Of a stretch of 64,000 nt of DNA, positions 1,875 to 63,043 are shown in pieces. Each line of letters starts with the position of its first letter. Position 1 is the stretch's first letter. The DNA comes from Eubacteriales bacterium. GTDB taxonomy: Bacteria > Bacillota > Clostridia > Oscillospirales > JAAYXM01. The position numbers and the translations under genes are program-made. The notes below the pieces were generated by a model. It was not told the DNA's origin. It saw only the letters and a program-made list of their open reading frames with translations, and did no database searches. The stretch is from the NCBI GenBank assembly GCA_045652405.1, contig JAZRUF010000005.1, positions 421-64,420 on the forward strand, in the 5' to 3' direction.

Positions 1875-1877
1875 GGT

Positions 1878-2378: not shown

Positions 2379-2390
2379 TTTACTACTCCT

Positions 2391-3497
2391 CTATATTACA
2401 CCTACCGCATACATACTGCTTAAAATTGACAAAAACATCAGCAGCGCGCAAGATGCAGACATCCCCAATACTATTCCAAAACTTCCTCCTATCCTTTCCA
2501 CCAAATGTGTCAGTCGGCTTTCCGTCATCGGTGCAATAACCGTCGCGGACAATTTAAAGAGGAAGTAATTTACGCCTAGCGTAAGAAAAGGTGTTAAACA
2601 TATAGATAAAATTGTCAGCATCCCGAACACACCAATGGCGTTTTTCATAATCGTTGCTCCTGCAATAACCGTTCCCGCCGCATCAGCTATTATGCCGCCG
2701 ACAACTGGAACCGCACCGCTTATCGCAAACTTTGCAGTTTTAACACCTATTCCGTCACCCGCACCGGCAAGAATTCCAGATACACTCAAGTATGCAACAA
2801 ATGCGGTCAGCGCAATTTTAAGCCCGCTCGAAACCAACCACTTAATAAAATCTGATATTTTACCCAGTGCACTGTTTTCAATTGCCGCATCCGCGCATGC
2901 CACAATGATATAGGCATAAACCAAAGGAAAAAACAAATTTTTAACAGCACTCACAAGTAAATCCGCAAAAAAGACCGTAGCAGTATACCTCGCCGTAGCA
3001 GCTAACGGTGTACCCGCAGCCGTAGCCGCCGCGCATAATGATGGAAGAAGAGTTTTGGAAAAAGCGTTTATCTCCTCTACCGCAGTCTGTCCCATACCGA
3101 TAATCGTGTTGAAACTTCCGGTACATGCCGCAGTAATCGCAAGTGCTCCTGCAGTAACAACAAATTCAGGAAGCCTGCCGTTTTGTCCGCTCGCATATAA
3201 CGGTATAACAATTCCGCACAGTGCAGCAATTACTAAAATCGCCGCCGCACTCTTGAGCCCACGGCGAAACACATTTTCAAACTCTCCGAAAAGACGGCCT
3301 TTAAGCTTTTTAAGTCCCCCATCAAGCGATAGGTTCTCTTCCACAGAAAAACCATCCTGAGCAGATTCAGGTACACTTTCCTCAAGCGCCCGAATATTTA
3401 GTGCATCGTATTGCCTATCAAAAAACGAATCATCCGCCGCATATGAACTTGCGCTAAAAAATATCGTGAAAGCAACTACTGCCAAAACAAACTTCAT
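2391..3497 (-). CDS. spoIIIAE: Stage III sporulation protein AE
   Basis: 368-aa polytopic membrane protein with a signal-like N-terminus. Its size and position match SpoIIIAE. Confidence 0.85.
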   Translation of the reverse strand: MKFVLAVVAFTIFFSASSYAADDSFFDRQYDALNIRALEESVPESAQDGFSVEENLSLDGGLKKLKGRLFGEFENVFRRGLKSAAAILVIAALCGIVIPLYASGQNGRLPEFVVTAGALAITAACTGSFNTIIGMGQTAVEEINAFSKTLLPSLCAAATAAGTPLAATARYTATVFFADLLVSAVKNLFFPLVYAYIIVACADAAIENSALGKISDFIKWLVSSGLKIALTAFVAYLSVSGILAGAGDGIGVKTAKFAISGAVPVVGGIIADAAGTVIAGATIMKNAIGVFGMLTILSICLTPFLTLGVNYFLFKLSATVIAPMTESRLTHLVERIGGSFGIVLGMSASCALLMFLSILSSMYAVGVI

Positions 3498-3513
3498 TAT
3501 TTTTCATTCCCAT

Positions 3514-3897
3514 CTAAATAGATGCGACCAATTCCATCACGCTCATGAGAAGCGGAAGCGAAATCACCACCGCTACCACGCATCCTGCAAACTCCACACA
3601 GGATGCTAATGCCGCACTGCCCGCGTCTCTACACACATCCGCAGAAATTTTGCTTACAACCGAAACCGCAACCGTTTTTATAAGTGGTGAAAAAACCGGT
3701 TTTATAACCCTTGTATATCCAGCCATATCATCTATAAATGATGTTATATTATTTACCGCGCCTATCACCGACCACATTATCACAGCTCCCGCGCAAATTA
3801 GCAAAACAACCGCTATTTCCGGCGCACTCTTTTTTATTGACAAAGCGGCTATCGCAGAAAGCACCGCCAATCCCGCACATTTAATTAAAACATCCAT
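3514..3897 (-). CDS. spoIIIAD: Stage III sporulation protein AD
   Basis: Small four-TM protein. I place the start at ATG 3897 (MDVLIKCAGLAVL), 4 nt after the spoIIIAC stop. The track start at 3942 would overlap spoIIIAC by 41 nt. Confidence 0.8.
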   Translation of the reverse strand: MDVLIKCAGLAVLSAIAALSIKKSAPEIAVVLLICAGAVIMWSVIGAVNNITSFIDDMAGYTRVIKPVFSPLIKTVAVSVVSKISADVCRDAGSAALASCVEFAGCVVAVVISLPLLMSVMELVASI

Positions 3898-3901
3898 TTT
3901 T

Positions 3902-4096
3902 CTAAAATCCAAATGTACTCTTAACCAAATCAAATAATGCACTTATTTCACGTATAATTATCATTAAAACCACAATTAGTCCGGCAAGAGTTGTCATCAT
4001 AGCCTGCTCTTCTCTGCCTGACCGTATCAAAAGTTGATTGAGTACGGATACCAAAATCCCTATCGCCGCTACTTTGAAAATTAAATCGACTTGCAT
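3902..4096 (-). CDS. spoIIIAC: Stage III sporulation protein AC
   Basis: 64-aa two-TM protein, IFKVAAIGILVSVLNQLL..GREEQA....LAGLIVVL, closely resembling Bacillus SpoIIIAC. Confidence 0.85.
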   Translation of the reverse strand: MQVDLIFKVAAIGILVSVLNQLLIRSGREEQAMMTTLAGLIVVLMIIIREISALFDLVKSTFGF

Positions 4097-4134
4097 ATTC
4101 TCTCACCTATCCGGCATTGCCACAGAAGTATGTC

Positions 4135-4650
4135 TTAAATAAATACAATCACCAACGCTATCCCGCAAGCAACACCTAAACTTCCATATAACTTTCCTAA
4201 TCTTCCTTTTTCACTCTCCGCAGCTTTAGCACGTCCCTCCAGCACCTTTCTCAAATGCTCAATCCTCGCCGCCTGTTCATTGGCATCATACCTTCCAAGC
4301 GTATTTCCCAAATCAAGCAAAACTTGCTTTTCCTGACCGGTAAGCTCCATATAATCCGCACGACCGAGTGCACTGCTCCACGCACTGTAAAAGCTTATAT
4401 CTGCCTGTTTATTGCATATTTCCATACATTCATCAAAGAACGTTTTTATAGGCTCTTTAACGCTTTTTTTGCATTTTATCATAAGCTCATTTACAGGTGT
4501 CAATAAAAATTTAATTTCAGAATGCATCATATCCAATACACTCATCCACGCATTGAGCACATTTATCCTTAACGTCAGTCGATTTGCCGCAGATATTCCT
4601 ATAGCCGCACTTCCGCTGCAAATCATGATTGCGCCAATCATTTTAAGCAT
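4135..4650 (-). CDS. spoIIIAB: Stage III sporulation protein AB
   Basis: 171 aa with N- and C-terminal TM helices flanking a helical GspF-like domain. Assigned also by operon position. Confidence 0.8.
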   Translation of the reverse strand: MLKMIGAIMICSGSAAIGISAANRLTLRINVLNAWMSVLDMMHSEIKFLLTPVNELMIKCKKSVKEPIKTFFDECMEICNKQADISFYSAWSSALGRADYMELTGQEKQVLLDLGNTLGRYDANEQAARIEHLRKVLEGRAKAAESEKGRLGKLYGSLGVACGIALVIVFI

Positions 4651-4675
4651 TTACTTTTCATCTCCTGGAATTTTC

Positions 4676-5596
4676 TTATCTCAACCGCTCTATACGATAT
4701 GTATGTTCACGCCCATTTCTTTCAAGCACAACAGCATATTTAAATATCTCCTGCTCCATAAGGCTTCTATATAAATTCCTTTTAAAAAGAGACTCTACAT
4801 CTTCGCCGTGCGCTGTAGCCAATAAGCCTACACCGCAGTTTGATGCATACTCAATCGCATGCACATCCTCCTGCGCGGTTATCTCATCAACCGCGAGTAT
4901 TTGTGGTGACATTGATCTCAGCATAAGCATCATTGCCCCCGCCTTGTTTACCCCTTCCATAACATCTGTCTGTTTTCCCACGTCAAACTGAGGAACACCT
5001 CTGTACTTAGCCGCAATTTCACCGCGTTCATCAGCCACTGCAATTCTGAAGTTAACACTGAGAATACGTATTAAATCCCTGAGCATCGTGGTCTTTCCAT
5101 ACCCCGGTGGCGATACGATAAGCGTATTTTGAAACACACCACCAATAACCAAATCAGGTGCCAATTTTTCAGCTATCCCCGGAAACTCCTTGGCAATTCT
5201 CACCGATACCGAGGATATATCTTTTATAAAAGTAAGTTCTTTATTCTTTAAAACCCCGGTTCCGCAAAGACCTATTCTGTGTCCCCCGGAAACGGTTATA
5301 AACCCGTTTTTTATACTATCTGCCGCTGAATGTACCGAGCCACCGGTCGCAAGCTCTAACACCGCATTTAATTCTTCATGACGCACAGGGCTTTCACTTG
5401 CAATCTCCACCTCTCCCGAAGGAAGAAGCACCGTCATCCGCTGTCCCGACCTCAGCCTGAATTCCTCCGCCTGCTCTTTAAGGTTTCCGTCTATCTGCAT
5501 TACCTGACCACGAAAGCGCGGGGGTAAAAACTGAACCGCCTGTCCAAACCGTTTTTGTAAATCATTTTTCTTTCTCATAATTGTTTCCTCCATCAT
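4676..5596 (-). CDS. spoIIIAA: Stage III sporulation protein AA (secretion-type AAA ATPase)
   Basis: Walker A SPPGYGKTT and Walker B-like ILAVDEI. First gene of the eight-gene spoIIIA cluster. The exact start is uncertain. Confidence 0.85.
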   Translation of the reverse strand: MMEETIMRKKNDLQKRFGQAVQFLPPRFRGQVMQIDGNLKEQAEEFRLRSGQRMTVLLPSGEVEIASESPVRHEELNAVLELATGGSVHSAADSIKNGFITVSGGHRIGLCGTGVLKNKELTFIKDISSVSVRIAKEFPGIAEKLAPDLVIGGVFQNTLIVSPPGYGKTTMLRDLIRILSVNFRIAVADERGEIAAKYRGVPQFDVGKQTDVMEGVNKAGAMMLMLRSMSPQILAVDEITAQEDVHAIEYASNCGVGLLATAHGEDVESLFKRNLYRSLMEQEIFKYAVVLERNGREHTYRIERLR

Positions 5597-11412: not shown

Positions 11413-11459
11413 GACTGCAAAGGGTATTGCGCCCAATTTGTGCTGAGAAGGTGGTAGCT

Positions 11460-12173
11460 ATGCACAGCCATATTCGCAAAAAAATTTTAAAAACGCGACC
11501 TAAAGCCCGGAGTAGGCAAAGTACCTCTCGCCCGCTTATAAAGCTTGCAATGCTTTTTATCATCATAATAATTGCTTTGCTGTACATATTCCACGCTCGC
11601 TTTAAGCCCGCAATACGCATATATGCAGAACATCAGGCCCAAAATGCAGTACACCAAATAATAAATTCACAGTTAGAAAAAGCTCTGAGCTCCGGAGGTA
11701 TATCATATCAAAGCTTTGTAAACTTAGAAAAAGACAGTAACGGTCGTATATGCGCTATAACAACTGATATGTCTGCTATGAACACATTTAAAGCACAAGT
11801 TACGGATGCCATTTTAAAAGAAAATGCAGATATGCCGCCATTTGAGTTAAAAATCCCGGCAGGTGTCCTTCTCGGAAACGAATATTTTGCCGGGCACGGC
11901 CCCAATATTCCTATAAAAATACTGCCGTTTTCCTCAATAAAAACCTCATACTCAAACTCATTTACCTCTGCGGGAATAAACCAGACCAGGCATCAAATAA
12001 TGATGAATTTCACAGCATCAGTAAATATGCTTTTTCCGGGTTTTAGCGAAAACATGACCGTCACGACGGATATATGCGTGGCAGAAACCGTAATCGTCGG
12101 TGCTACTCCTCAGTTTTTCGCCGGATTGCAGGATAGAACAACTTTTGCAGATTACAGCTCAATATCTGATTAA
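11460..12173 (+). CDS. yunB: Sporulation protein YunB
   Basis: N-terminal basic region plus TM, then IINSQLEKAL....ISYQSFVNLEKDSNGRI.AITTDM..MN.FK and C-terminal TTDICVAETVIVG, matching the YunB family. The ATG at 11460 follows a GAAGGTGG RBS. Confidence 0.7.
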   Translation: MHSHIRKKILKTRPKARSRQSTSRPLIKLAMLFIIIIIALLYIFHARFKPAIRIYAEHQAQNAVHQIINSQLEKALSSGGISYQSFVNLEKDSNGRICAITTDMSAMNTFKAQVTDAILKENADMPPFELKIPAGVLLGNEYFAGHGPNIPIKILPFSSIKTSYSNSFTSAGINQTRHQIMMNFTASVNMLFPGFSENMTVTTDICVAETVIVGATPQFFAGLQDRTTFADYSSISD

Positions 12174-12224: not shown

Positions 12225-14540
12225 TTAAGACCGTTTAAATAATTCCTCAATTATTCCTGCAACTGACTCCATTGTTCCTTCAGAAAACGGATTCTTAAGT
12301 TCTGCACCTAAGGTAAGTGCTGCCAGACCGAAGCGAACATATTTTGATTCTAAAATGTTCATATACTTCTCAAATGCCAGGTCAAAATTCGTCTTTGAGA
12401 TTTCCCAAATCTGAAGCGAAACCGCACTGGAAAGAGCGTATTCTATCATATAAAACGGAACTTCATAGACATGTGTTGCGTTGCTCCAGACCAACCCCTT
12501 AAGATAAGCTTGGTGCGCGCTCGAAGAATATTTTCCAAAATACTCCTCATCTATTTTTCTGTATAGCTTATTTCGCGCTTCGGGAGACATATTGGGGTTC
12601 TTATAAACCTCTGTCTGAAATTCATCGAGCATGCAACTGTCAATTATCTGGGCAAGGAAATTATAAATCACATATTTTTCCGCATTCTTTGCATTGCCTC
12701 CAAAAAACTCATCATACCTCTTTGCAAGCAAAAGCTCCATCGCGGTTGATGCGGTTTCCGCTACATCCAGCGGGATGTTATCCGTCGGGTTCTTTCCGTA
12801 CCAACGGAAATTCTGGAACACGTGACCGAATTCATGCGAAAACGTGCTTAAACCCTCATATCCGCCCTCACCTTTTATATACATGAACGGCATTTCATAT
12901 TGGTTAAAATACACGGTAAATGCCCCGGGCGATTTATTTTCTCTGTTATCTGAATCTATCATATCGTATTTTACGATATAATCAATTGCCTGTCGCGTCT
13001 GCGGGGACAAGTCTCTCATGACTTCTTTTATTATTTCTATATAATTGGTATTGTCACCAAGAAACGACATATCCGGAAATTCATATTCATTTTCCTCAAT
13101 ATCCGGATAAATCATAGCATACTGAGCGTGGCGAATATCATTGTAGAGCGGCACTAAGTATTTTTTTACGTCATCACGAAATGCACGGATGTTATCTTCG
13201 TAATATCCATATGCCGCATCATAGTAGTTAGCGCAATTATAATATTTGGCTATTTCAGTACGCACTTTAACAAGCTTATCGAAAATACTGTTAAAGACGC
13301 TTTCTTTCTCTACGTAGTAATCAAGCCCCAACTGTCTGAGTTCAGCCTTCTCCGAATACATAGCCTGGTAAAGAGAGTATTTACTACCTTCAAATGAAAT
13401 AGACGGCGAATTATACAAATCGCTAAACTCACTTACATACTCGGTTTCTCGGTTGAACAAGTCTAAAATTTTCTGCTCCATAGGTGCTGACGGCGGGAGT
13501 AAATTTTCAAATTTAATCCCGATTTTTTCGCAGACCGCGTCTCTGTCCGGTGCGGATTTAAGGGCATTATACTGAGCGATATATATTTCCGTCAGTGCTT
13601 TTTGCGCCTGTGGGATTTTTGCATACTCAGCCTTGTACTCAGCACTTGTTACATCGCGCTTTACATTTATGCTTGCCATGGTTACAGCCGTGTTTATTCC
13701 CAACTGAAGCTTTGTAAGCTCACTGAAAATTTCTGCTTTGCGTTTTGTATCTGCACTATTGAATTCTGAAATCAGAGCATCCTTTTGTGCAATAAGGTCG
13801 GTTTTGGCAAGCGAAGGATATGAAATATCCGAAAACTTTACACCTTTGCGGTTCGGTGCAATCTCAAGTGCAGTTGACGATGCTGCCGCCATTATCTCGA
13901 AATACGCCCAATGTGATGCCTTCAGGTCAGAAAATTTCTGTTTTTCTACCTGAATTTTAACATCCATTCCCACTGCTTTATTTATCATTTTCACGGCTTC
14001 AGCGCGTGTTAGATACGAGTTTGGTCGGAAAGTGCCGTCCCCATATCCGCCGATAAACTTCTTTTCCGAAAGAGCAGCTATACTGCCCTCAGCCCAGTGT
14101 CCGCTGATATCCTTGAAAGCCTTGGTCTTTTTCCCTGCAACATTTATTTTCATTGCACGTGCAACTATGGTTGCAAACTCAGCTCGTGTAAGACCCCTGT
14201 TCGGTTTAAAAACATTTCCTGCATATCCGTTTATTATCCCGGCATCACTTAGCGTGGAAATCGCACTGTATCCCCAAAAGCTCTGCGGAACATCGGAAAA
14301 GCTTTTCCCGCTCTGCCCTTTTAATTGCAAATCAAGAACGTAGTAGAGCATCTTCGCACCCTGGGCACGTGTGAGTACACTGTCCGGGCGAACCGTTCCG
14401 TCCTCGAATCCGTTTATATATCTAAAATAATTTCTGTCACTGTCCTGCCTGAAGCCGACACCTGCCGCATTTGCGCCAAGTGACATCAGCATGGAAAGAA
14501 TCACCGCAACAGCAGTTATCCTCTTTAAATTTCCTCTCAT
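12225..14540 (-). CDS. Secreted SLH-domain-anchored M3B (PepF-like) oligoendopeptidase
   Basis: Signal peptide (ITAVAVILSMLMSLGANA). Three to four SLH repeats follow (F.DV....W....I......GII.GY..G.F.PN..LTRAE). The C-terminal catalytic region carries HEFGH (12822-12836) and a downstream DVAETAST glutamate ligand, as in the M3B PepF family. A GGAG RBS precedes the ATG. Confidence 0.75.
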   Translation of the reverse strand: MRGNLKRITAVAVILSMLMSLGANAAGVGFRQDSDRNYFRYINGFEDGTVRPDSVLTRAQGAKMLYYVLDLQLKGQSGKSFSDVPQSFWGYSAISTLSDAGIINGYAGNVFKPNRGLTRAEFATIVARAMKINVAGKKTKAFKDISGHWAEGSIAALSEKKFIGGYGDGTFRPNSYLTRAEAVKMINKAVGMDVKIQVEKQKFSDLKASHWAYFEIMAAASSTALEIAPNRKGVKFSDISYPSLAKTDLIAQKDALISEFNSADTKRKAEIFSELTKLQLGINTAVTMASINVKRDVTSAEYKAEYAKIPQAQKALTEIYIAQYNALKSAPDRDAVCEKIGIKFENLLPPSAPMEQKILDLFNRETEYVSEFSDLYNSPSISFEGSKYSLYQAMYSEKAELRQLGLDYYVEKESVFNSIFDKLVKVRTEIAKYYNCANYYDAAYGYYEDNIRAFRDDVKKYLVPLYNDIRHAQYAMIYPDIEENEYEFPDMSFLGDNTNYIEIIKEVMRDLSPQTRQAIDYIVKYDMIDSDNRENKSPGAFTVYFNQYEMPFMYIKGEGGYEGLSTFSHEFGHVFQNFRWYGKNPTDNIPLDVAETASTAMELLLAKRYDEFFGGNAKNAEKYVIYNFLAQIIDSCMLDEFQTEVYKNPNMSPEARNKLYRKIDEEYFGKYSSSAHQAYLKGLVWSNATHVYEVPFYMIEYALSSAVSLQIWEISKTNFDLAFEKYMNILESKYVRFGLAALTLGAELKNPFSEGTMESVAGIIEELFKRS

Positions 14541-14559: not shown

Positions 14560-15807
14560 TTACTTTCTAATATTTTTTCTATTCATCTTTTTTACATCTA
14601 CCGGCAAAAGCGGATTAGTTTGTGATGCATATGCATACGTTTCAGTTGCCATTTCCTTTTTACGCAAGCGGTTCTCACTTGCCTCTTTAATTATTGCATA
14701 TATAACCGCGAAGAGCGGCACTCCGATTATCATGCCTACAAATCCCATAAGTCCGCCAAACACAGTCACCGCAAAGATTACCCAAAACGCAGAGAGACCT
14801 GTTGATTCGCCGAGTATTTTCGGTCCGATGATATTACCGTCTATCTGCTGGAGTACGATTATAAATATTGTAAACCACAGTGACTTTACAGGGTCAACAA
14901 ACAGCAGAAGGAAGATTGACGGTATTGCACCGATAAACGGTCCGAAATATGGGATAACATTTGTCACACATACGAGCACGCTTATAAGAAGTGCAAATGG
15001 CATGTTGAGTATTGTCATTCCAATATAGCATATAACGCCTATGATGAGCGAGTCGATTATCTTTCCGATTATAAATCCGCTGAACACAAAATTTGCAGTA
15101 TTTGCAAGTCCCAGCATACGTTCAACCGCGCTGTTGGGCAAAAACGCATACAACAGCTTTTTAAGCTGGGCGAAAAATGTTTCCTTTGATATCCAAACAT
15201 ATACCGCAATAACAAAGCCTATAAAGACATTGACTATTGTAGAGGTTATTGAAATTGTTGTACTTATGGTCGTATTTATAATTCCGCTGAACGAATCGGA
15301 AAGCATCCCCATAAATCCACGAATGAGGTCTTCAATATAGCTCATCATATTTTCAATTATTGGAAGGAATGTGTCACTGTTTTTAAAGTTTGAAATAAAG
15401 CTTACTATTATATCACGAACATTCGCAGCATACACGGTTATCTGAGATATGATATTGGCAACGCTTAGAGCAAGCTGAGGAATAATAAGGCCGATTAAAA
15501 AGCCGATTAAAAGTAAGCTCACAATCAATGTGCAGCACACACCCGCATATCTGCAAGCCTTACGTGACATTCGTTTACGGCTTATCCACGGAAAAAATTT
15601 TTTCTCAAACCAATTTAGGATAGGATTGAATATATACGCAAAGGAAAAGCCGTAAACAAACGGTACAAGCAGATTAAAAACAACCTGCAGTATATCCCTG
15701 AAATATGAAAAATTATTAAGCACCTGATACAGTAATACGCCTATCACCAAAACAATGAGAGTATATGCAGCTATAGTTGTATACTTTTTATTCCATTCTA
15801 TTTTCAT
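14560..15807 (-). CDS. AI-2E family transporter (PerM/YhhT-like permease)
   Basis: 415-aa polytopic protein with the C-terminal motif NVIPYFGPFIGAIP....L and QQ.DGN.I.PKILG, typical of the AI-2E family. Confidence 0.8.
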   Translation of the reverse strand: MKIEWNKKYTTIAAYTLIVLVIGVLLYQVLNNFSYFRDILQVVFNLLVPFVYGFSFAYIFNPILNWFEKKFFPWISRKRMSRKACRYAGVCCTLIVSLLLIGFLIGLIIPQLALSVANIISQITVYAANVRDIIVSFISNFKNSDTFLPIIENMMSYIEDLIRGFMGMLSDSFSGIINTTISTTISITSTIVNVFIGFVIAVYVWISKETFFAQLKKLLYAFLPNSAVERMLGLANTANFVFSGFIIGKIIDSLIIGVICYIGMTILNMPFALLISVLVCVTNVIPYFGPFIGAIPSIFLLLFVDPVKSLWFTIFIIVLQQIDGNIIGPKILGESTGLSAFWVIFAVTVFGGLMGFVGMIIGVPLFAVIYAIIKEASENRLRKKEMATETYAYASQTNPLLPVDVKKMNRKNIRK

Positions 15808-20941: not shown

Positions 20942-20982
20942 TTAAATTTGCACCGGTAATATAACAGAAAGGGTTGATTAAA

Positions 20983-22875
20983 GTGAAAAAGAGAATTTTT
21001 TCATTGTTTCTTGCAGTTGCAATGATGCTCTCAATTGCGCCGACTTCATCTGCTGCACTTGCACCGGACCATGATGAGATTTTTAAAATTCTGAATGTTT
21101 TAGGTTGGATGACTCCCAATGCACAGGGTAATTTCTACGGTTCTACAGATGTAACACGTGCAGCTCTTGCAAAAATCATTATTACAAGCTCATCCACATA
21201 TCGTGCAACGGTTTCCACTACTCAAAAAACTTCTCCTTTTAAGGATGTTAAATACACATTCTGGGGCGCTCCGTACATAAGCGCTGTCGCTCAAGCCGGA
21301 CTCATGTACGGCTACTCGGACGGCAGCTTTCGCCCAAACAAAGGTGTTCTTTACGAAGAAGCCGTGACCGCTATTCTCCGCGTATTGGGATATGGTGACA
21401 GTGACTACATTGGAAGCTACCCTACCGGTCAGCTTGCCTTTGCAAACGACTTAGAGCTTACAGATGGGATAAGCGCAACGCGCGGACAAATCATATCACG
21501 TTATGATATGTCACGCCTTTTGTATAATGCACTGTCTGTTCCCGCAAAGACGAGTGGCGGTAAAATTTACGCAGAGACCTTAGGTTATAGCCGCTCAACT
21601 GAAATGCTAAGACTTAATGACTTTGTTAAGGACACGGTAAACGGACCTGTCACCTACTTAAATACCTCGATTGAAAGCCTTACAGGTCTTTCTAATCCGA
21701 CTGTGTATATAAACGGAAGCAACAGTACATTAAGCGCAATCAAAGCATACGACGTTATTTATTACAGCAAACAGAGTAATACAATCTGGGTATACACGCA
21801 AAAGGCTACCGGCATACTTGAAGCAATTACACCGAATAAGGAATCCCCCTCTTCCGTAATAATCGGCGGTAAGACATATTCACTTGATTATTCAAAAGCC
21901 AGAACCGCATTCGGGTTGGACGGCTTAGAAACCGGAACGCTTGTAACCGCGCTTTTGGATAAGGACGGAAAGATTTACGACGCTTATGAGGCAGATAAGC
22001 TCTACTCTACTCAACTTGGTATAGTAACTAAGGCGGATACAAAGCAAGTAACACTAAGTGGTGGAATAGTAGAAACGCGTTATTACATAACAGTTCTTCT
22101 GATAAATGGAAATGAGGTTGAAATTGAGCGCGACACAAACTCATCCTCTATGCTCGGAAAGGCGGTTGAAATAAACTACCGCGACGGCAGTGTCACCCCA
22201 CACAATTATTCATCCTTGTCAGCACTTTCCTCCATATCCGGAACAATTAATTCAGAAACTCTCCTTTGGGGCACAAAAACAATACTTTCAAAAGATATAA
22301 AGATACTTGAGATTGACGAATACGGAAACTATACTACGCTAACCTTAAACCGACTTAACGGTGTGTATTTGAAAGGCTCACAAGTCGCCCTATATTCAAA
22401 AAACTCTACCGGAGCCATTGACGGTCTTATCCTTAAAAACGTATGCGGAGACACAGCCGAATTCGGTCACGTTACATCTTCAAACGTTGTAAGCAGCGGC
22501 GGCATGCCGGTAGGGATAAATTATACGTACACGCTCACAACCGGTTCAGGCTCTGGCACGATAGCAGAAATGCTCCCAAGCGCAGATAAAGGTCCTGCCG
22601 CATTCTATTTTAAAAATGGGCAATTGCAGGAAATCCGAAATTTAACACGTATATCCGGTAGGATAAATACATTAAATTACTCATATCTCGAAACCTCCAC
22701 CGGCGCAAAACACCGCATCTCCCCCTCAGTTATCGTTTATAAAGTTGTTTCAGGGACAAGGACACTCACAACAATAGACGAAGCAGTATCCGGAAACTGG
22801 AGTTTAGCCGCATACTATGATGAAGTTCAAAATGACGGCGGTATGGTACGAATGATTTACATTGAGTCAAAATAA
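20983..22875 (+). CDS. SLH-domain cell-wall-anchored protein with unassigned about 430-aa C-terminal region
   Basis: Signal peptide (IFSLFLAVAMMLSIAPTSSA) and SLH repeats (FKDV...FWGAPYISAVAQAGLMYGYSDGSFRPN..VLYEEAVTAILRVLGY). The remainder has no motif I recognise. The GTG at 20983 is 9 nt after GAAAGGG. The track start, TTG at 20974, abuts the RBS. Confidence 0.7.
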   Translation: MKKRIFSLFLAVAMMLSIAPTSSAALAPDHDEIFKILNVLGWMTPNAQGNFYGSTDVTRAALAKIIITSSSTYRATVSTTQKTSPFKDVKYTFWGAPYISAVAQAGLMYGYSDGSFRPNKGVLYEEAVTAILRVLGYGDSDYIGSYPTGQLAFANDLELTDGISATRGQIISRYDMSRLLYNALSVPAKTSGGKIYAETLGYSRSTEMLRLNDFVKDTVNGPVTYLNTSIESLTGLSNPTVYINGSNSTLSAIKAYDVIYYSKQSNTIWVYTQKATGILEAITPNKESPSSVIIGGKTYSLDYSKARTAFGLDGLETGTLVTALLDKDGKIYDAYEADKLYSTQLGIVTKADTKQVTLSGGIVETRYYITVLLINGNEVEIERDTNSSSMLGKAVEINYRDGSVTPHNYSSLSALSSISGTINSETLLWGTKTILSKDIKILEIDEYGNYTTLTLNRLNGVYLKGSQVALYSKNSTGAIDGLILKNVCGDTAEFGHVTSSNVVSSGGMPVGINYTYTLTTGSGSGTIAEMLPSADKGPAAFYFKNGQLQEIRNLTRISGRINTLNYSYLETSTGAKHRISPSVIVYKVVSGTRTLTTIDEAVSGNWSLAAYYDEVQNDGGMVRMIYIESK

Positions 22876-43846: not shown

Positions 43847-44683
43847 ATGTCAGAAAACCAATCTTGTAGCCATGATTGCGGATCATGCTCTGCTAACTGT
43901 TCATCACGTGAGCAGTCCCCTACTGATTTTCGTGAAGCACCCCACGAATTGAGTAACATCCGCCGCGTTATAGGCGTAGTAAGCGGTAAGGGCGGCGTGG
44001 GTAAATCCCTTGTAACTTCCCTGCTCGCGGTTCTTTTAAACCGCCGTGGTAAGAAAACCGCTATTTTGGACGCGGATATAACCGGTCCCTCAATCCCTCA
44101 GATTTTCGGTCTTCACGACCGCGCTGTTGCTTCGGGAAACGCAATTTTGCCGGTGACCACAAAAACCGGAATTGATGTTATGTCCGTAAACCTATTGCTC
44201 GAGGACGAAAAACAGCCGGTTGTTTGGCGCGGTCCGGTTATTGCAGGAACAGTAAAACAGTTCTGGACAGATGTCATTTGGAAAGACGTTGACTATATGT
44301 TCGTCGATATGCCTCCCGGCACCGGCGATGTTCCTCTCACTGTATTCCAATCCCTGCCGGTTGACGGAATAGTTGTAGTCGCATCTCCGCAGGAACTTGT
44401 CAGCATGATAGTTTCCAAAGCAGTTAACATGGCAAAGATGATGAACATTCCGATTTTAGGTCTTGTCGAGAACATGAGCTATCTTGAGTGCCCAGATTGC
44501 TCGAAGAAAATAAGCATTTTTGGCGAAAGCCACATAGATGAAATCAGCCGTGAGTTCGGGCTTCCCGTACTCGCAAAAATTCCAATTGACCCGCAGCTTG
44601 CAAGCCTTTGCGACAAGGGTTCACTTGAGCTCTTTGACGCTGAATGGATGAACGAAGCGGCTGACAAAATTGAAAACTTATAA
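43847..44683 (+). CDS. Mrp/NBP35/ApbC family Fe-S cluster carrier ATPase with Cys-rich N-terminal extension
   Basis: Deviant Walker A SGKGGVGKS, DMPPGTGD and a C-terminal CPDC pair. The N-terminal extension is CSHDCGSCSANC. Confidence 0.85.
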   Translation: MSENQSCSHDCGSCSANCSSREQSPTDFREAPHELSNIRRVIGVVSGKGGVGKSLVTSLLAVLLNRRGKKTAILDADITGPSIPQIFGLHDRAVASGNAILPVTTKTGIDVMSVNLLLEDEKQPVVWRGPVIAGTVKQFWTDVIWKDVDYMFVDMPPGTGDVPLTVFQSLPVDGIVVVASPQELVSMIVSKAVNMAKMMNIPILGLVENMSYLECPDCSKKISIFGESHIDEISREFGLPVLAKIPIDPQLASLCDKGSLELFDAEWMNEAADKIENL

Positions 44684-44693
44684 TTTACACACA

Positions 44694-44731
44694 AAAAGTC
44701 TGTTCCTCATATGGAACAGACTTTTTATTTT
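44694..44731 (+). terminator. Rho-independent terminator after the Mrp gene
   Basis: 13-bp perfect stem, aaaagtctgttcc (44694-44706) pairing with ggaacagactttt (44713-44725), followed by TATTTT. Confidence 0.8.
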
Positions 44732-44949
44732 GTCACAAATGCGAGCGAAAGTGTTATTGATAAATAAATATTTGAAATGTCAAGCGCAATCTTAATACTC
44801 CCAAACTTCTTTCCTAACTTATCTGCAACCGCCTTTACACACTTTAAATATTATTTATAATTTCTATTCACAAGTTATACCCTATGTACATAAAATGAAT
44901 TGGAGTAATAATATGACTCTTATATTAAGCAATGGAGGTTTGTGCATAA

Positions 44950-45330
44950 ATGAGACACTATAACTGTGCTAATTTTGCAGGTAGCGGATTTGAAAATCCC
45001 AACTGCCCCCATCCACCGGTTCAGTATTGCTGCACGGGACCAATAGGTCCGCGCGGTCCGCAAGGCCCGCAAGGTCCCCAAGGTGAACCCGGCCCCGTAG
45101 GCCCGATGGGTGCTCAAGGTCCTATCGGCGCAACCGGCATTGACGGCGCTACCGGTCCTACCGGCGCTACTGGCCCTACTGGTGCTACTGGTGCTACTGG
45201 TGCCGATGCTGCCATAACTCCCGCAGCCGCCGTGGCAGATTTGCCTGCAACCGCAACATTGGAAGATGTGATAACAACCGTGAACTCTCTTCTCGCATCT
45301 CTCCGCGCAGCAGGCTTTTTAAACGCATAA
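44950..45330 (+). CDS. Small collagen-like (GXY repeat) protein, monocistronic
   Basis: 126 aa. The 29-aa N-terminus has four Cys. An uninterrupted run of 19 Gly-X-Y triplets follows ([57 protein letters not shown]). The 40-aa Ala/Leu-rich C-terminus is ...[29 protein letters not shown] lies 11 nt upstream and terminators flank both sides. Confidence 0.75.
45037..45207 (+). repeat. Triplet-codon (GXY) tandem repeat region with near-identical 9-nt units at its 3-prime end
   Basis: Every third codon is GGN. 45160-45205 holds reiterated ggYgcYacYgg / ggtgctact units ([19 protein letters not shown]). Confidence 0.8.
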
Positions 45331-45340
45331 ATTACAAAAA

Positions 45341-45374
45341 CCGGGAAGGCGGAATATACCGTCCTCCCGGTTTT
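45341..45374. terminator. Hairpin terminator between the convergent collagen-like and aminopeptidase genes
   Basis: ccgggaagg (45341-45349) pairs with cctcccgg (45363-45370) with one bulge. AAAAA lies upstream and TTTT downstream. Confidence 0.65.
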
Positions 45375-60420: not shown

Positions 60421-62628
60421 CTATTGCCCGCCAATCAGCGCGCGCAGTCCGCTGTATCTGTTTCTTTGTTTGTTATTGTCAACCATCGCCTGCACGTTAT
60501 TTAAATCACCTACGATTATTAAAAGCTCCTTCGCGCGGGTTATAGCCGTGTAAAGCACGCTTCTGTGAAGTAGATATTTCGTACCTCCCAAAGCCGCAAA
60601 AACCACCGCTCGAAATTCGCTTCCCTGCGCTTTGTGCACGGTCATTGCATATGCAAGCTCAAGCTCATTTATCATAGTAAACGGATAGTATACCAACCTG
60701 TCATCAAACTCGACAGTGACCACCTCGCTCTGCAAATCAATGGCCTTTATTTCACCCACATCACCGTTAAAAACACCCATGCCGGACTCTCCGTCATATA
60801 TGCTGTGCCATGCTCGGTCATAGTTGTTTCTAACCTGCATGACGCGGTCGCCTACTCGAAACACCCGCTCACCTATACGTTTTTCCTTCTTATCCGGATG
60901 TGGTGGGTTTATCGCCTGCTGCAAGCGCCGGTTGAGCACTGCAGTTCCTACCTCGTATTTGCGGTTGGTGGTAAGCACCTGTATTTGGCTTGCAGGTATT
61001 TTCATATTCTCAGGAAGCCTTCTTGAAACCAAATCCACAACCGTATCTATGCACTCTGTATACACATTTTTCCGCAAAAAAAACAAGTCACTGTCCTTCT
61101 GCGTTAAATCCGGCATCTCTCCGCGGTTTATCTGATGTGCTCCAACAACTATGTTACTCTCTGCCGCTTGACGAAAAATCTCTTCTAGCCGCACGGTCGG
61201 AACCACGTCCGATGCAATCAGGTCCTTTAAAACATTTCCCGCACCCACACTCGGCAACTGATCCGCATCACCGACAAGCACAAGCCTGCAGCCTGGTCTT
61301 AGCGCATCCGTAACCGCACGCATAAGCATAAGGTCCACCATACTCATTTCGTCTATTATAAGAACATCGCAGTCGAGCGGTTCGCTGTGCGTTTTCCCAA
61401 ATACAGGGAACACATTCCCTTCGCTGTAGTTCATTTCAAGCATTCTGTGAATCGTCTTTGCCTCCGCGCTGCAAGCTTCGCTCATTCGCTTTGCCGCGCG
61501 TCCGGTCGGCGCGGCAAGCGCGCAATTTAACCCCAGCCTCTCAAAAACCGCAAGCATGCCGCGTATAACCGTGGTTTTACCGGTTCCCGGTCCACCTGTA
61601 AGTATCATAACCGGATTTTCTGCCGCCATAACTATCGCACGCCGCTGGTTTTCCGCATATTCAATTTTCTGCTCACGCGCAATCCTATTTATAAGCTTTT
61701 CACTGTCAACCCTTCCGCAAGCAGAAAAGTCAGACATCATATCTAAAAGCTTTTGAGCAACATATTCCTCAGCCTCATACAGATGCGCGAGATACACCGC
61801 ATCCACATCGCGTATCCGCCGAGTCTTTAACATACCGTCCTCGCACAGTGTACTCACCGCATTTTCTATCGGCAATATATCAAGCCCTATCATCTTTGCC
61901 GTTGCCTCAATCAACTTACCATACGGCAAAAAGCTGTGCCCAGCTTCTGAATTATAGCTTAGCGTGTATATAACCGCTGCCTCAACGCGCGACTGCGCCT
62001 CTGCGCTCACCCCAAGCTTCTCAGCCATCAAATCCGCCTTGTAAAAATCCACACCAAAAGTAAAATCCGTGAGGATATACGGATTTTGTTTTATAATACC
62101 TATCGCAGCACTGCCGTACATCCTGTAAAGCTTAACCGCAATCGCAGGCTCGACCTGATTTCCGACCAAATATTCCATAAGACGGCTGATTCCGTTTTGC
62201 ATTGCAAAATCCTCGGATATTTTCTTGGCTTTCTCCGGTGTTATACCGGATATTTCACAAAGCCGTTCCGGCTCCTGCTCCATAACATAAAAGCAGTTTT
62301 TACCGAATTTGGAAACCAGCTTCTCCGCGGTCTTCCTGCCCACACCTTTTACTGCACCTGAGGACAGATAATCCAATATCGCGCCCTCTTCCGCAGGCAA
62401 GCTGCGTTGAATCGTATCTATTTGAAATTGCTCACCGTAAGAGGCATGCTCAACCCATTTCCCCGCCGCCGATATAAACTCTCCAACGCCGATATGCGGG
62501 GCGCATCCGACCGCCGTAACCGTATCACCGCTTGATGAATTCACGCGAAGCACCGCATACCCGTTATCATCATTGCGGTAGATTACTGTATCAACAGTTC
62601 CCTCCAACGTTATTACTTCCTGCTTCAT
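60421..62628 (-). CDS. recD2: RecD2-type ATP-dependent DNA helicase (SF1B)
   Basis: N-terminal G.V..VIYRN.DNGYAVLRV, Walker A LTGGPGTGKTT, LIIDEMSMVD and a C-terminal TVHKAQGSEF. The ATG at 62628 is 5 nt after GGGGGA. Confidence 0.9.
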   Translation of the reverse strand: MKQEVITLEGTVDTVIYRNDDNGYAVLRVNSSSGDTVTAVGCAPHIGVGEFISAAGKWVEHASYGEQFQIDTIQRSLPAEEGAILDYLSSGAVKGVGRKTAEKLVSKFGKNCFYVMEQEPERLCEISGITPEKAKKISEDFAMQNGISRLMEYLVGNQVEPAIAVKLYRMYGSAAIGIIKQNPYILTDFTFGVDFYKADLMAEKLGVSAEAQSRVEAAVIYTLSYNSEAGHSFLPYGKLIEATAKMIGLDILPIENAVSTLCEDGMLKTRRIRDVDAVYLAHLYEAEEYVAQKLLDMMSDFSACGRVDSEKLINRIAREQKIEYAENQRRAIVMAAENPVMILTGGPGTGKTTVIRGMLAVFERLGLNCALAAPTGRAAKRMSEACSAEAKTIHRMLEMNYSEGNVFPVFGKTHSEPLDCDVLIIDEMSMVDLMLMRAVTDALRPGCRLVLVGDADQLPSVGAGNVLKDLIASDVVPTVRLEEIFRQAAESNIVVGAHQINRGEMPDLTQKDSDLFFLRKNVYTECIDTVVDLVSRRLPENMKIPASQIQVLTTNRKYEVGTAVLNRRLQQAINPPHPDKKEKRIGERVFRVGDRVMQVRNNYDRAWHSIYDGESGMGVFNGDVGEIKAIDLQSEVVTVEFDDRLVYYPFTMINELELAYAMTVHKAQGSEFRAVVFAALGGTKYLLHRSVLYTAITRAKELLIIVGDLNNVQAMVDNNKQRNRYSGLRALIGGQ

Positions 62629-62992
62629 CCATATCCCCCGCTGCATTTTCCGCCATCTGCTTTTTCAAATAATCACCAACATCTTCGCATGCAAGCACGC
62701 AAAGCTTAGCTCTTCCCCATGCTGCATGCAGAAGTTCATTGTGCATTTCCTCAGAAATATTGCCGCACAGAATTATCTCCCGCTCCTCCGGCAACATATC
62801 ACGTTGCCACAAAAGTGAATTAACAACCTTTTTCAAGTCCGTGTTTTCGTCCCGCGCAGCAACGACCGTGTAAGCGCATATTCCTTTACAGTCATCCGGC
62901 CGTATGAAAATTCCTATTATGAGCCAAACGAGTGTAGCAGCTCCAATCGCTGCAAATAAAGCAAAAATCCCCTCAAATACTATACTTGACAT
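62591..62992 (-). CDS. Hypothetical membrane-anchored protein (single N-terminal TM)
   Basis: 133-aa ORF with TM FEGIFALFAAIGAATLVWLIIGIFI and a soluble Cys-bearing domain. I recognise no family. Its 3-prime end overlaps recD2 by 38 nt. Confidence 0.45.
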   Translation of the reverse strand: MSSIVFEGIFALFAAIGAATLVWLIIGIFIRPDDCKGICAYTVVAARDENTDLKKVVNSLLWQRDMLPEEREIILCGNISEEMHNELLHAAWGRAKLCVLACEDVGDYLKKQMAENAAGDMDEAGSNNVGGNC

Positions 62993-63043
62993 ATGTAGTG
63001 CACCTCCGCACCATCATATGCAGATATGTAACAGGCGGTGAAT

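What the first reader, a model, noticed from the sequence alone, without database searches (positions are those of the whole stretch)
44913..45374. Orphan 126-aa collagen-like mini-protein with Cys-bearing N-terminus and short helical C-terminus
Seen: a monocistronic gene flanked by terminators (44694-44731 and 45341-45374) after a 266-nt AT-rich spacer. It encodes a 29-aa N-terminus with four Cys (C6, C19, C27, C28), 19 uninterrupted GXY triplets and a 40-aa Ala/Leu-rich tail ([23 protein letters not shown]) that looks amphipathic-helical. A sequence resembling the mother-cell sigma-K -10 (CATAaaaTG at 44889-44897, with AC 17 nt upstream) lies 53 nt before the ATG. Established: bacterial collagen-like proteins such as BclA in Bacillus/Clostridioides exosporium, Scl in streptococci and phage tail fibres use a non-collagen domain to nucleate trimerisation. 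BclA uses a ~130-aa C1q-like domain, which is absent here. Inference: in a spore former this could be a minimal spore-surface filament. The short C-terminal helix would act as the trimerisation nucleus and the N-terminal cysteines as cross-linking anchors. Alternatively it is a domesticated phage-fibre fragment.
Basis: partly seen in the sequence, partly recalled or inferred. Interest (0 to 1): 0.6.

Follow-up and report, generated by a model that had tools for sequence, protein, structure and literature searches.

The report
Mini collagen-like spore-surface fibre gene
This small gene is real and is not an orphan: it is one of the shortest members of a large, apparently undescribed family of collagen-like proteins in spore-forming gut Clostridia, and it most likely forms a short three-chain hair on the spore surface, held together at its far end by a module also found in phage head fibres.

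Summary
The described anatomy is confirmed. The ORF is 44950-45330 (126 aa): a 29-aa N-terminus with C6/C19/C27/C28, 19 GXY triplets and a 40-aa tail. It is monocistronic between two stable hairpins.

"Orphan" is wrong. More than 70 database proteins and 147 genome loci, almost all gut or rumen Clostridia MAGs, share the architecture of Cys-rich N-terminus, collagen run and the same C-terminal tail.

A profile of that tail matches solved phage fibre modules that form trimers: a phage tail fibre gp9, crAss001 gp21 and the C-terminus of phi29 gp8.5. The window's tail alone does not reach significance.

In 30 of 56 evaluable loci the family gene sits within 300 nt of a 350-360 aa GT2+TPR glycosyltransferase. 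This enzyme has the same size and architecture as C. difficile SgtA, which glycosylates BclA3. The window has no such gene.

A sigma-K-type promoter motif (AC-N15-18-CATAnnnT) precedes 24 of 42 independent family units, against about 4% of control genes. The window's copy is conserved in a sister strain. The window also carries spoIIIA, yunB and a ytvI-like gene, and the protein has no signal peptide.

Best reading: a minimal BclA-like spore-surface fibre in which the C1q head is replaced by a phage head-fibre module. Function is inferred, not shown.

The parts
44693..44726 (+). Intrinsic terminator of the upstream mrp/apbC-like gene (43847-44683)
   Evidence: Called by the scan (14-bp stem plus T run). 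dG -20.3 kcal/mol, z -6.7. Conserved in the sister strain.
44780..44840 (.). Remnant (about 82% identity) of a DUF6198 membrane-protein gene that is intact in the sister strain. This deletion scar forms part of the 266-nt spacer.
   Evidence: blastn of the window spacer against L010. The DUF6198 gene is at L010 6881-7534. Sequence read.
44834..44861 (+). Sigma-70-like promoter match TTTACA-16-TATAAT (11/12). Its -35 lies in the deletion scar and is not conserved in the sister strain.
   Evidence: Comparison with L010.
44868..44897 (+). Sigma-K-type mother-cell promoter candidate: tTCACa (AC at 44870-71), 17-nt spacer, CATAAAAT(G)
   Evidence: Conserved in the sister strain with an 18-nt spacer. 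The same motif is enriched upstream of family genes: 21/55 against 51/1205 controls, p=8e-14, and 24/42 non-redundant units. The C. difficile sigma-K consensus is -35 AC and -10 CATATAAT (PMC3789822).
44934..44938 (+). Ribosome-binding site GGAGG, 11 nt before the ATG
   Evidence: Read directly from the sequence.
44950..45036 (+). N-terminal 29 aa: Cys-rich (C6, C19, C27, C28), no hydrophobic signal peptide, CC doublet directly before the collagen run. Putative anchor or disulfide connector.
   Evidence: AF2 pLDDT <50. 5 synonymous against 1 non-synonymous codon differences versus the sister strain. 101 of 122 family members have at least 2 Cys here. No sequence relatives.
45037..45207 (+). 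Collagen-like region: 19 GXY triplets, the last 9 mostly GXT (GAT/GPT)
   Evidence: Pfam PF01391, E=1.8e-10. Repeat number differs in the sister strain, where the assembly breaks inside the repeats.
45208..45330 (+). C-terminal 40-aa module (extended ITPAAAVAD segment plus helix 104-120) and stop codon. Homologous at profile level to the C-terminal unit of phage head fibres or tail fibres.
   Evidence: Profile A1 against PDB: 23sh tail fiber gp9 2e-7, 7qof crAss001 gp21 5.5e-5, 3qc7/6qvk phi29 gp8.5 residues 243-280 3e-4. AF2 helix with pLDDT >90. The module lies within 1-3 residues of the C-terminus (up to 9 in three members) in bacterial and phage members.
45337..45374 (+). Terminator hairpin flanked by A4 and T4, between convergent genes (likely bidirectional)
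   Evidence: dG -24 kcal/mol, z -4.4. Conserved in the sister strain. Not called by the consensus scan because it has only 4 T.

Best explanation
The gene encodes a minimal BclA-like spore-surface fibre of an uncultured spore-forming Oscillospiraceae bacterium.

Inferred mechanism:
- It is transcribed late in sporulation in the mother cell from a sigma-K-type promoter, and translated in the mother-cell cytoplasm (there is no signal peptide).
- Three chains are registered by the C-terminal 40-aa module. This module is a single unit of the phi29 gp8.5 / crAss001 gp21 head-fibre domain, which is trimeric in phages.
- From that nucleus the 19 GXY triplets zip into a triple helix of roughly 17 nm.
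- The Cys-rich N-terminus, with its CC doublet abutting the helix, staples the trimer and/or disulfide-links it to cysteine-rich coat or exosporium proteins. The phage-type module would then be the exposed distal tip.
- The GXT triplets are potential O-glycosylation sites for an SgtA-like GT2-TPR enzyme. That enzyme is encoded next to most relatives but not within this window.

Shown: the anatomy, family membership, profile homology of the tail, the family's neighbourhood, promoter-motif enrichment, sporulation genes in the window, and purifying selection on the N-terminus. Inferred: timing of expression, trimerisation, localisation, disulfides and glycosylation.
For: - Anatomy.
- Family: 72 of the 120 best hits carry the same tail, mostly with Cys-rich N-termini. 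A genome scan found 147 relatives, and the 80 loci kept are nearly all Clostridia MAGs.
- Tail: profile hits to trimeric phage fibre C-termini. gp8.5 is a homotrimer with a helix-turn-helix supercoil stem (PMC6542822). The gp21 trimer's C-terminal domain is homologous to gp8.5 226-280 (PMC10172136). AF2 gives a helix at 104-120 with pLDDT >90.
- Sigma-K motif: 21/55 family upstream regions against 4.2% of 1205 control upstream regions (p=8e-14). 12 of 17 GT-first operons carry it just upstream of the GT. 24 of 42 non-redundant units carry it. The window's site is conserved in the sister strain. C. difficile bclA1-3 are sigma-K dependent (PMC3789822).
- GT2-TPR gene: within 300 nt in 30 of 56 evaluable loci. 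It is homologous to the protein O-GlcNAc transferase GmaR (8e-27) and to SunS. It has the same size and architecture as SgtA, which adds O-GlcNAc to Thr of BclA3 collagen repeats and lies next to bclA3 (PMC7157674).
- Spore former: spoIIIAA-AH, yunB and a ytvI-like gene in the window.
- No signal peptide anywhere in the family.
- Cys-rich N-termini also occur fused to true BclA_C domains, for example P0076, which also stands alone with a sigma-K-like motif.
- A CC motif in the N-terminus of the spore fibrillum protein L-BclA is proposed to dock by disulfide (PMC11362473, PMC12357932).
- Real gene under selection: in the first 60 codons, 13 synonymous against 2 non-synonymous differences versus the sister strain.
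Against: - There are no expression, proteomic or structural data for this gene or any family member.
- The window's own sigma-K-like site is not significant alone: 13 matches on the two strands of the window.
- A better sigma-70-like promoter lies 30 nt upstream, so vegetative expression cannot be excluded in this strain.
- No SgtA-like GT occurs within the 64-kb window, and 22 of 56 evaluable relatives also lack one nearby.
- Homology of the tail to solved structures holds only at profile level. The single sequence gives E=0.99 to gp21.
- 19 triplets is short for a stable bacterial triple helix without help from both ends.
- Some family-bearing MAGs are labelled Christensenellaceae, whose cultured members are described as non-sporulating (my own knowledge; MAG labels are loose).
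Confidence: 0.6

Rival explanations
1. It is on the spore surface but is not a nap hair. It would be the tip fibrillum of an endospore appendage (ENA-like pilus), docked by its N-terminal CC motif into a disulfide-linked fibre, as proposed for L-BclA on L-ENA.
For: A CC doublet (C27C28) and 4 Cys lie in a short unstructured N-terminus with no exosporium leader. L-BclA has an N-terminal CC motif and no leader (PMC11362473). A Cys-rich CC-motif collagen-like protein is the candidate S-ENA ruffle (PMC12357932). ENA families occur in Clostridia (PMC12357932).
Against: No ena-type gene (DUF3992/DUF4183) was seen next to the gene in the window, the sister strain or the five annotated family loci. 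l-bclA is operonic with ena3A, whereas this gene is monocistronic. The rest of the genome could not be searched.
Confidence: 0.12
2. It is a vegetative-cell or otherwise non-spore structural protein, driven by the sigma-70-like promoter (for example a cell-surface or intracellular fibre unrelated to sporulation).
For: TTTACA-16-TATAAT, an 11/12 match, at 44834-44861. The neighbours are housekeeping genes.
Against: There is no signal peptide, LPXTG motif or SLH domain to reach the cell surface. The -35 of that promoter lies in a strain-specific deletion scar and is not conserved in the sister strain. The family-wide enrichment is for a sigma-K-type motif.
Confidence: 0.1
3. It is a domesticated or decaying phage-fibre fragment with no cellular function (a prophage remnant).
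For: The C-terminal module is shared with phage proteins: crAss-like contigs, 20 viral contigs and phage structures in PDB. PHROG tail-fibre hits cover only the collagen part.
Against: No phage genes lie within about 20 kb. The same locus is occupied in a sister strain, with purifying selection on the N-terminus. The Cys-rich N-terminus never occurs in the viral hits. The family has conserved chromosomal partners and promoter motifs.
Confidence: 0.05
4. It is a glycocin-like or other ribosomally made, S-glycosylated Cys-rich peptide. The SunS-related GT2-TPR enzymes of the family would modify the N-terminal cysteines rather than collagen threonines.
For: The family's GT2-TPR enzymes hit the SunS S-glycosyltransferase family (NCBIfam 3e-14 to 3e-19, below cutoff; PDB 7msp 4e-12). 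The N-termini are Cys-rich.
Against: The best structural relative is the O-GlcNAc transferase GmaR (8e-27). No leader peptide, peptidase or exporter is conserved nearby. The collagen and trimer modules make no sense for a bacteriocin. The window has no GT at all.
Confidence: 0.03

Closest known systems
C. difficile BclA3 with its glycosyltransferase SgtA (exosporium hair glycoprotein)
   Same: Short unstructured N-terminal domain, GXT-rich collagen region of variable repeat number, no signal peptide, and sigma-K-type promoter. At family level, an adjacent 350-360 aa GT2+TPR enzyme like SgtA (358 aa, GT-A 1-260 plus 4 TPR) (PMC7157674, PMC3789822, PMC13188886).
   Different: No C1q/TNF-like BclA_C head. 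A 40-aa phage head-fibre module sits in its place. The protein is far smaller (126 aa). There is no GT gene in this window. Direct sequence homology of the family's GT to SgtA itself was not tested.
B. anthracis/B. cereus BclA (hair-like nap)
   Same: Architecture of N-terminal anchor, collagen stalk and C-terminal trimerising head. Made in the mother cell.
   Different: No exosporium leader motif of the LIGPTLPPIPP type and no BclA_C domain. Anchoring by cysteines is only inferred.
phi29 gp8.5 head fibre and crAss001 gp21 trimeric head fibre (C-terminal domain)
   Same: The tail matches their C-terminal unit at profile level (gp8.5 243-280, gp21 55-89). Both are homotrimers (PMC6542822, PMC10172136). 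The module is at the extreme C-terminus.
   Different: A single unit rather than three stacked helix-turn-helix repeats. It is fused to collagen and a Cys-rich N-terminus instead of a capsid-binding base. The context is chromosomal and non-phage.
L-BclA, tip fibrillum of Bacillus L-ENA endospore appendages
   Same: Spore collagen-like protein without an exosporium leader, with an N-terminal double-cysteine motif proposed to dock by disulfide (PMC11362473).
   Different: L-BclA has a C1q head and is co-transcribed with ena3A. No ena gene was seen here.
Streptococcal Scl1/Scl2 and Legionella Lcl collagen-like adhesins
   Same: Collagen-repeat similarity only (NCBIfam 33-41 bits).
   Different: No signal peptide, V domain or LPXTG anchor. 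Scores are far below the cutoffs of 325-500.
Cystine knot of vertebrate type III collagen (GPCCG) (own knowledge)
   Same: Two adjacent cysteines directly abutting a triple helix, able to link three chains covalently.
   Different: Here the doublet is at the N-terminal rather than the C-terminal end of the helix. This is an analogy only and was not tested.

Membership tests
BclA family (exosporium collagen-like glycoproteins) | Central GXY collagen-like region rich in GXT triplets | tested here: met
   19 GXY at 45037-45207, with 7 GXT among the last 9 triplets. PF01391, E=1.8e-10.
BclA family (exosporium collagen-like glycoproteins) | C-terminal C1q/TNF-like trimerisation domain (Pfam BclA_C, PF18573) | tested here: not met
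   No Pfam hit other than Collagen, even at E<=10. The tail is only 40 aa.
BclA family (exosporium collagen-like glycoproteins) | N-terminal exosporium-targeting leader (B. cereus group motif) | tested here: not met
   Direct reading of M1-T29 shows no LIGPTLPP-like motif. C. difficile-type N-terminal domains have no defined motif to test against.
BclA family (exosporium collagen-like glycoproteins) | Mother-cell (sigma-K) expression | tested here: inconclusive
   An AC-N17-CATAAAAT motif is present, conserved in the sister strain and enriched family-wide. No transcript data exist, and a sigma-70-like site is also present.
BclA family (exosporium collagen-like glycoproteins) | Location on the spore surface | not testable with these tools
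   Needs spore proteomics or immuno-EM.
Unnamed Clostridia family: Cys-rich N-terminus + collagen + head-fibre-type tail | Conserved C-terminal module (I/V)TPAAAVAD...N.LLA.LRAAG(L/F/V)(L/I) at the extreme C-terminus | tested here: met
   Alignments A1 and A3. N112, L115, R119 and G122 are invariant. The window tail is 41-76% identical to the other A1 tails.
Unnamed Clostridia family: Cys-rich N-terminus + collagen + head-fibre-type tail | Cys-rich, signal-peptide-less N-terminus with Cys close to the collagen start | tested here: met
   The window has 4 Cys with CC at positions 27-28. 101 of 122 members have at least 2 Cys, and 77 of 122 have Cys within 10 aa of the first GXY.
Unnamed Clostridia family: Cys-rich N-terminus + collagen + head-fibre-type tail | Adjacent SgtA-like GT2+TPR glycosyltransferase | tested here: not met
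   No tblastn hit (1e-3) in the 64-kb window. The feature holds in 30 of 56 evaluable relatives and is absent in 22 of 56, so it is frequent but not universal.
phi29 gp8.5 / crAss001 gp21 head-fibre C-terminal module | Sequence homology to the C-terminal helix-turn-helix unit | tested here: met
   At profile level only: E=2e-7 (23sh gp9), 5.5e-5 (7qof gp21), 3e-4 (3qc7/6qvk gp8.5). The single sequence is not significant, E=0.99.
phi29 gp8.5 / crAss001 gp21 head-fibre C-terminal module | Homotrimeric assembly | not testable with these tools
   Only monomer AF2 was available. It gives a helix at 104-120 with pLDDT >90. Needs AF-multimer, SEC-MALS or a crystal structure.
phi29 gp8.5 / crAss001 gp21 head-fibre C-terminal module | Part of a virion, encoded among phage structural genes | tested here: not met
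   The neighbours are mrp, ispE, an aminotransferase, an M18 aminopeptidase, coaE, sua5 and prfA.
ENA tip fibrillum (L-BclA-like) | N-terminal double-cysteine connector, no exosporium leader | tested here: met
   C27C28. The criterion comes from PMC11362473 and PMC12357932.
ENA tip fibrillum (L-BclA-like) | Genetic linkage to an ena fibre subunit gene (DUF3992/DUF4183) | tested here: inconclusive
   None among the Pfam-annotated neighbours in L001-L004, L007, L009 and L010. Small ORFs of the window and the rest of the genome were not scanned.
Scl1/Scl2 LPXTG collagen-like adhesins | Signal peptide, variable domain and LPXTG anchor; score above the NCBIfam cutoff | tested here: not met
   37-41 bits against cutoffs of 325-400, covering collagen only. 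No LPXTG motif or signal peptide in the sequence.

The most novel reading that the evidence does not exclude
Gut Oscillospirales and related Clostridia may possess a previously undescribed class of spore-surface hairs. In this class the C1q head of BclA is replaced by a single phage head-fibre unit that has been exchanged with gut phages, including crAss-like viruses. The spore tip would then display the same adhesive or trimerising module as phage capsids. The 126-aa window protein would be a near-minimal natural example: a disulfide connector, a helix of about 17 nm, and a 40-aa trimer cap.
Probability: 0.4. Interest if true: 0.6.

Novelty: new variant of a known kind. Interest (0 to 1): 0.5.

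Why it matters
Spores are how most anaerobic gut commensals pass between hosts, yet their surface proteins are essentially unknown outside C. difficile and the B. cereus group. This finding defines a sequence signature: a Cys-rich N-terminus, GXY repeats and an ...[12 protein letters not shown] tail, often with an SgtA-like GT and a sigma-K-type promoter. That signature picks out candidate spore-hair genes in well over a hundred uncultured Clostridia genomes.

It also shows that a 40-aa module from phage head fibres is reused as the capping domain of bacterial collagens. This bears on how short triple helices are nucleated. It also offers a very small natural trimerisation tag for engineered bacterial collagens.

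The repeat regions break short-read assemblies, so these genes are systematically missed or truncated in MAG annotation. This one is absent from the protein collection even though its neighbours are present.

Tried and rejected
- Exact-sequence look-ups of the window protein returned nothing, although neighbouring proteins of the same NCBI contig are on record.
- A word search with the N-terminal 42 aa found no candidate.
- Two metagenome DNA scans, one with the exact 32-mer and one with the degenerate N-terminal peptide pattern, found nothing.
It was redone with 8 closer tails.
- Foldseek of the AF2 monomer against PDB was meaningless (E>7), as expected for an extended chain.
- A single-sequence PDB search of the tail was not significant. 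Its top hit was a weak match to DC-SIGNR neck repeats (E=0.039, no significant stretch), which I treat as chance.
- phmmer of the 40-aa tail against 1.84 billion representatives gave only 35 hits at E<=1e-3, limited by query length. The top hit, P0132, is a low-complexity artefact.
- PHROG and NCBIfam hits (tail fibres, Scl, Lcl) cover only the collagen repeats and say nothing about function.
- Sigma-E-type motifs (ATA-N15-18-CATA) were sought upstream of spoIIIAA, yunB and ytvI as a positive control. None were found, so the organism's own mother-cell promoter consensus remains uncalibrated.
- The Corallococcus and Streptomyces genome hits look, respectively, like a mis-binned Clostridia contig (its N-terminus resembles L079/L090) and a 50-aa stand-alone module.
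Full report
**1. What is in the sequence**

The ORF runs 44950-45330 on the + strand and encodes 126 aa. The finding's start coordinate, 44913, is an out-of-frame ATG. An in-frame TAA at 44947-49 directly precedes the true ATG, so no N-terminal extension is possible. A GGAGG lies 11 nt upstream.

The protein reads as follows:
- [29 protein letters not shown], 29 aa, with Cys at 6, 19, 27 and 28.
- 19 uninterrupted GXY triplets at 45037-45207. The last nine are mostly GAT/GPT.
- [40 protein letters not shown], 40 aa.

Pfam sees only Collagen (PF01391, 1.8e-10) and no BclA_C domain. NCBIfam and PHROG hits (Scl, Lcl, tail fibres) cover the collagen part only and lie far below the curated cutoffs.

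Both flanking hairpins are stable:
- 44693-44726: dG -20.3, z -6.7.
- 45337-45374: dG -24, z -4.4. This one has only four U and sits between convergent genes.

The spacer is 266 nt with 29.7% GC, against 45% for the window. A better sigma-70-type match, TTTACA-16-TATAAT (11/12), lies at 44834-44861. The − strand ORFs overlapping the repeats are shadows of the collagen frame.

**2. The gene is real and conserved in place**

The neighbouring proteins are on record from an NCBI contig of 64,597 bp, but this protein is not.

A sister genome, GCA_045636205.1 (RpoB 99% identical), has the ortholog at the same position between mrp and the M18 aminopeptidase. There the assembly breaks inside the repeats: one contig ends after 98 N-terminal residues and another begins with the last 49.

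Comparison with that ortholog:
- N-terminal 29 residues: one substitution.
- First 60 codons: 13 synonymous against 2 non-synonymous differences.
- Last 43 codons: 7 synonymous against 10 non-synonymous differences.

So the N-terminus is under purifying selection and the tail evolves fast outside its conserved core.

The sister strain has more triplets. The window's count of 19 may be genuine variation or an assembly collapse.

The sister strain also carries a DUF6198 gene between mrp and this gene. The window retains only a remnant of about 60 nt at about 44780-44840, so part of the "AT-rich spacer" is a deletion scar. The -35 of the sigma-70-like promoter lies in that scar and is not conserved. 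The 115 nt before the ATG, including the CATA motif, are 90.5% identical.

**3. It is not an orphan**

A search of 5.8 billion proteins gave 1610 hits. Of the 120 best, 72 end in the same tail, consensus (I/V)TPAAAVAD-x(6-12)-(V/I)xxxNxLLAxLRAAG(L/F/V)(L/I)xx. Most of these have Cys-rich N-termini.

A scan of one genome per species found 147 relatives. The 80 loci kept are almost all gut or rumen Clostridia MAGs: Oscillospiraceae, Lawsonibacter, Flavonifractor, Acutalibacteraceae, Christensenellaceae, Ruminococcus and Lachnospiraceae.

Members range from 71 to 429 aa, with 6 to about 100 triplets. The window protein is among the shortest. One member, P0133, has no collagen at all.

Of 122 full-length proteins with the tail, 101 have at least 2 Cys in the N-terminus and 77 have a Cys within 10 residues of the first triplet. 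None has a hydrophobic signal sequence.

Only the window's N-terminal sequence is lineage-specific.

By RpoB the organism is an uncultured Oscillospiraceae/Ruminococcaceae-type bacterium, 77-79% identical to Flavonifractor and Papillibacter.

**4. The tail is a known phage fibre module**

A profile of 25 tails matched the following solved structures:

| Structure | E-value | Region matched |
|---|---|---|
| Phage tail fibre gp9 (23sh) | 2e-7 | its last 33 residues |
| crAss001 head fibre chain (7qof_l, 97 aa) | 5.5e-5 | residues 55-89 |
| phi29 head fibre gp8.5 (3qc7, 6qvk) | 3e-4 | residues 243-280, the C-terminus |
| Decoration protein (9d82) | 9e-4 | |
| C-termini of three phage depolymerases | 3e-3 | |

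The window's tail alone does not reach significance (E=0.99), so this homology rests on the family profile.

AF2 (monomer) gives a disordered N-terminus, an extended collagen part and a confident helix at 104-120. Fold search was uninformative.

In viral contigs the module caps small proteins (67-150 aa) with unrelated, Cys-poor N-termini. crAss-like contigs carry a 164-aa version next to fibre and ring genes.

The phage-origin idea is right for this module only.

**5. Genomic company of the family**

The window's neighbours are housekeeping genes, not phage genes.

In relatives, a 348-360 aa GT2+TPR protein lies within 300 nt in 30 of 56 loci that have at least 1.5 kb on both sides. It is farther away in 4 and absent within 6 kb in 22. 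Among all 46 linked loci it is on the same strand in 40.

This enzyme matches the catalytic domain of GmaR, the Listeria flagellin O-GlcNAc transferase (8e-27), and SunS (4e-12).

C. difficile SgtA is 358 aa, with a GT-A domain at 1-260 plus four TPR. It lies immediately upstream of bclA3 and adds beta-O-GlcNAc to threonines of the BclA3 collagen repeats (PMC7157674). The family therefore reproduces the bclA3-sgtA arrangement.

The window has no such gene in 64 kb. In this it resembles about 40% of relatives, and also P0076, a Cys-rich collagen protein with a true BclA_C head that stands alone in a housekeeping context.

**6. Promoter evidence**

The pattern AC-N15-18-CATAnnnT(A/G) was counted in several sets:

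| Set | With motif |
|---|---|
| 200-nt regions upstream of family genes | 21 of 55 |
| Control ORF upstream regions in the same loci | 51 of 1205 (Fisher p=8e-14) |
| Strict form AC-N16-17-CATAnnnTA, family | 9 of 55 |
| Strict form, controls | 17 of 1205 (p=5e-7) |
| Mononucleotide shuffles | 1.4 of 58 expected |

- Where the GT comes first, 12 of 17 operons have the motif 15-24 nt before the GT start.
- After clustering similar upstream regions, 24 of 42 independent units carry it.
- The -35 is often CAC, as in the window (tTCACa).
- In C. difficile the sigma-K promoter is -35 AC with -10 CATATAAT, and bclA1-3 are sigma-K dependent (PMC3789822).

Caveats:
- The pattern's last position was relaxed after seeing the window.
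- The window's single site is not significant alone (13 matches on the two strands of the window).
- I could not calibrate the organism's own mother-cell promoters.

**7. The host sporulates**

The window carries spoIIIAA, AB, AE, AF, AG and AH, plus yunB and a ytvI-like gene.

**8. Most likely mechanism (inference)**

- Sigma-K transcription occurs in the mother cell, and the protein is made in its cytoplasm.
- The C-terminal module trimerises and the 19 triplets zip up into a helix of about 17 nm. This length follows the roughly 0.3 nm per residue calibration for spore collagens in PMC11362473.
- The CC doublet abutting the helix, plus C6 and C19, would form interchain disulfides and/or links to Cys-rich coat or exosporium proteins.
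- The GXT triplets may be O-glycosylated if an SgtA-like enzyme exists elsewhere in the genome.
- A precedent for cysteine docking is L-BclA, the L-ENA tip fibrillum. It has an N-terminal CC motif and no exosporium leader (PMC11362473, PMC12357932). This also defines the main rival sub-model, a tip fibrillum on an appendage.

**9. Comparison and novelty**

It works like BclA/BclA3 but fails the defining C1q-head test. It also lacks the B. cereus leader motif, so it should not be filed as a BclA family member.

It contains a phage head-fibre C-terminal unit but is not a virion gene.

In the literature I could search I found no description of the Cys-rich/collagen/head-fibre-tail family or of its pairing with SgtA-like enzymes. 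That library is incomplete.

I rate it a new variant of a known kind, of moderate interest. It gives a usable signature for spore-surface genes in uncultured gut Clostridia and a very small natural collagen-capping module. Every functional step is still inferred.

Noticed in passing
window 738-5596 (-), 11427-12173 (+), 14560-15807 (-): spoIIIA operon (AA, AB, AE, AF, AG, AH identified), yunB and a ytvI-like gene. The organism is genetically a spore former.
   Followed up: partly
window 44780-44840; L010 6881-7534: The spacer upstream of the gene contains a remnant of about 60 nt of a DUF6198 membrane-protein gene. That gene is intact in the sister strain GCA_045636205.1, so this is a strain-specific deletion next to the promoter.
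   Followed up: yes
L009 7475-7624, L010 7655-7948, and about 20 of L011-L090: Short-read assemblies break inside these collagen genes. The sister-strain ortholog is split over two contig ends and many MAG copies are truncated. The window's protein is missing from the protein collection although its neighbours are present.
   Followed up: partly
L005/L006 8001-8495 (crAss-like phage contigs): A 164-aa phage protein next to a tail-fibre gene and crAss Ring proteins ends in the same module as the window protein (ATITPAAAVENLAPEADAATIATRVNTLLANLRTAGLLAS). The module is therefore shared between crAss-like phages, whose cultured members infect Bacteroides, and Firmicutes chromosomes.
   Followed up: partly
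L015, L025, L032, L033, L040, L044, L049 (family genes); P0009, P0023, P0047, P0161; phage L106/L107: Longer family members carry one to three copies of a domain of about 40 aa, T(I/V)TVGxTxTG(E/D)PGTxASVTxxGxxxxAxLxFxIPxG, inserted between collagen runs. The same domain occurs in phage proteins. Its identity was not determined.
   Followed up: no
P0133 (77 aa, metagenome): A member with a Cys-rich N-terminus fused directly to the C-terminal module, with no collagen triplets at all. It is either an extreme natural deletion or an assembly collapse.
   Followed up: no
window 45208-45327 vs L009 7475-7624: The C-terminal module differs at 10 non-synonymous and 7 synonymous codons of 43 between sister strains. 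The first 60 codons differ at 2 non-synonymous and 13 synonymous codons. The tip evolves fast around a conserved [13 protein letters not shown] core.
   Followed up: partly
L002 8586-9497 and L003 3983-4897: In two loci the family gene is followed by homologous multi-pass membrane proteins of about 303 aa with no Pfam hit (55% identical to each other). A weaker relative occurs in L016. Function unknown.
   Followed up: no
window 20974-22875 (+): A 633-aa protein with an S-layer homology (SLH) domain. A second SLH-like/NEAT-like hit occurs in the M3 peptidase-like ORF at 12225-14540.
   Followed up: no
window 63012-63039 (-): Another good sigma-K-type motif match (ACCGCCTGTTACATATCTGCATATGATG) lies in an intergenic region about 370 nt upstream of the 741-aa ORF 60421-62646. 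It was not examined.
   Followed up: no
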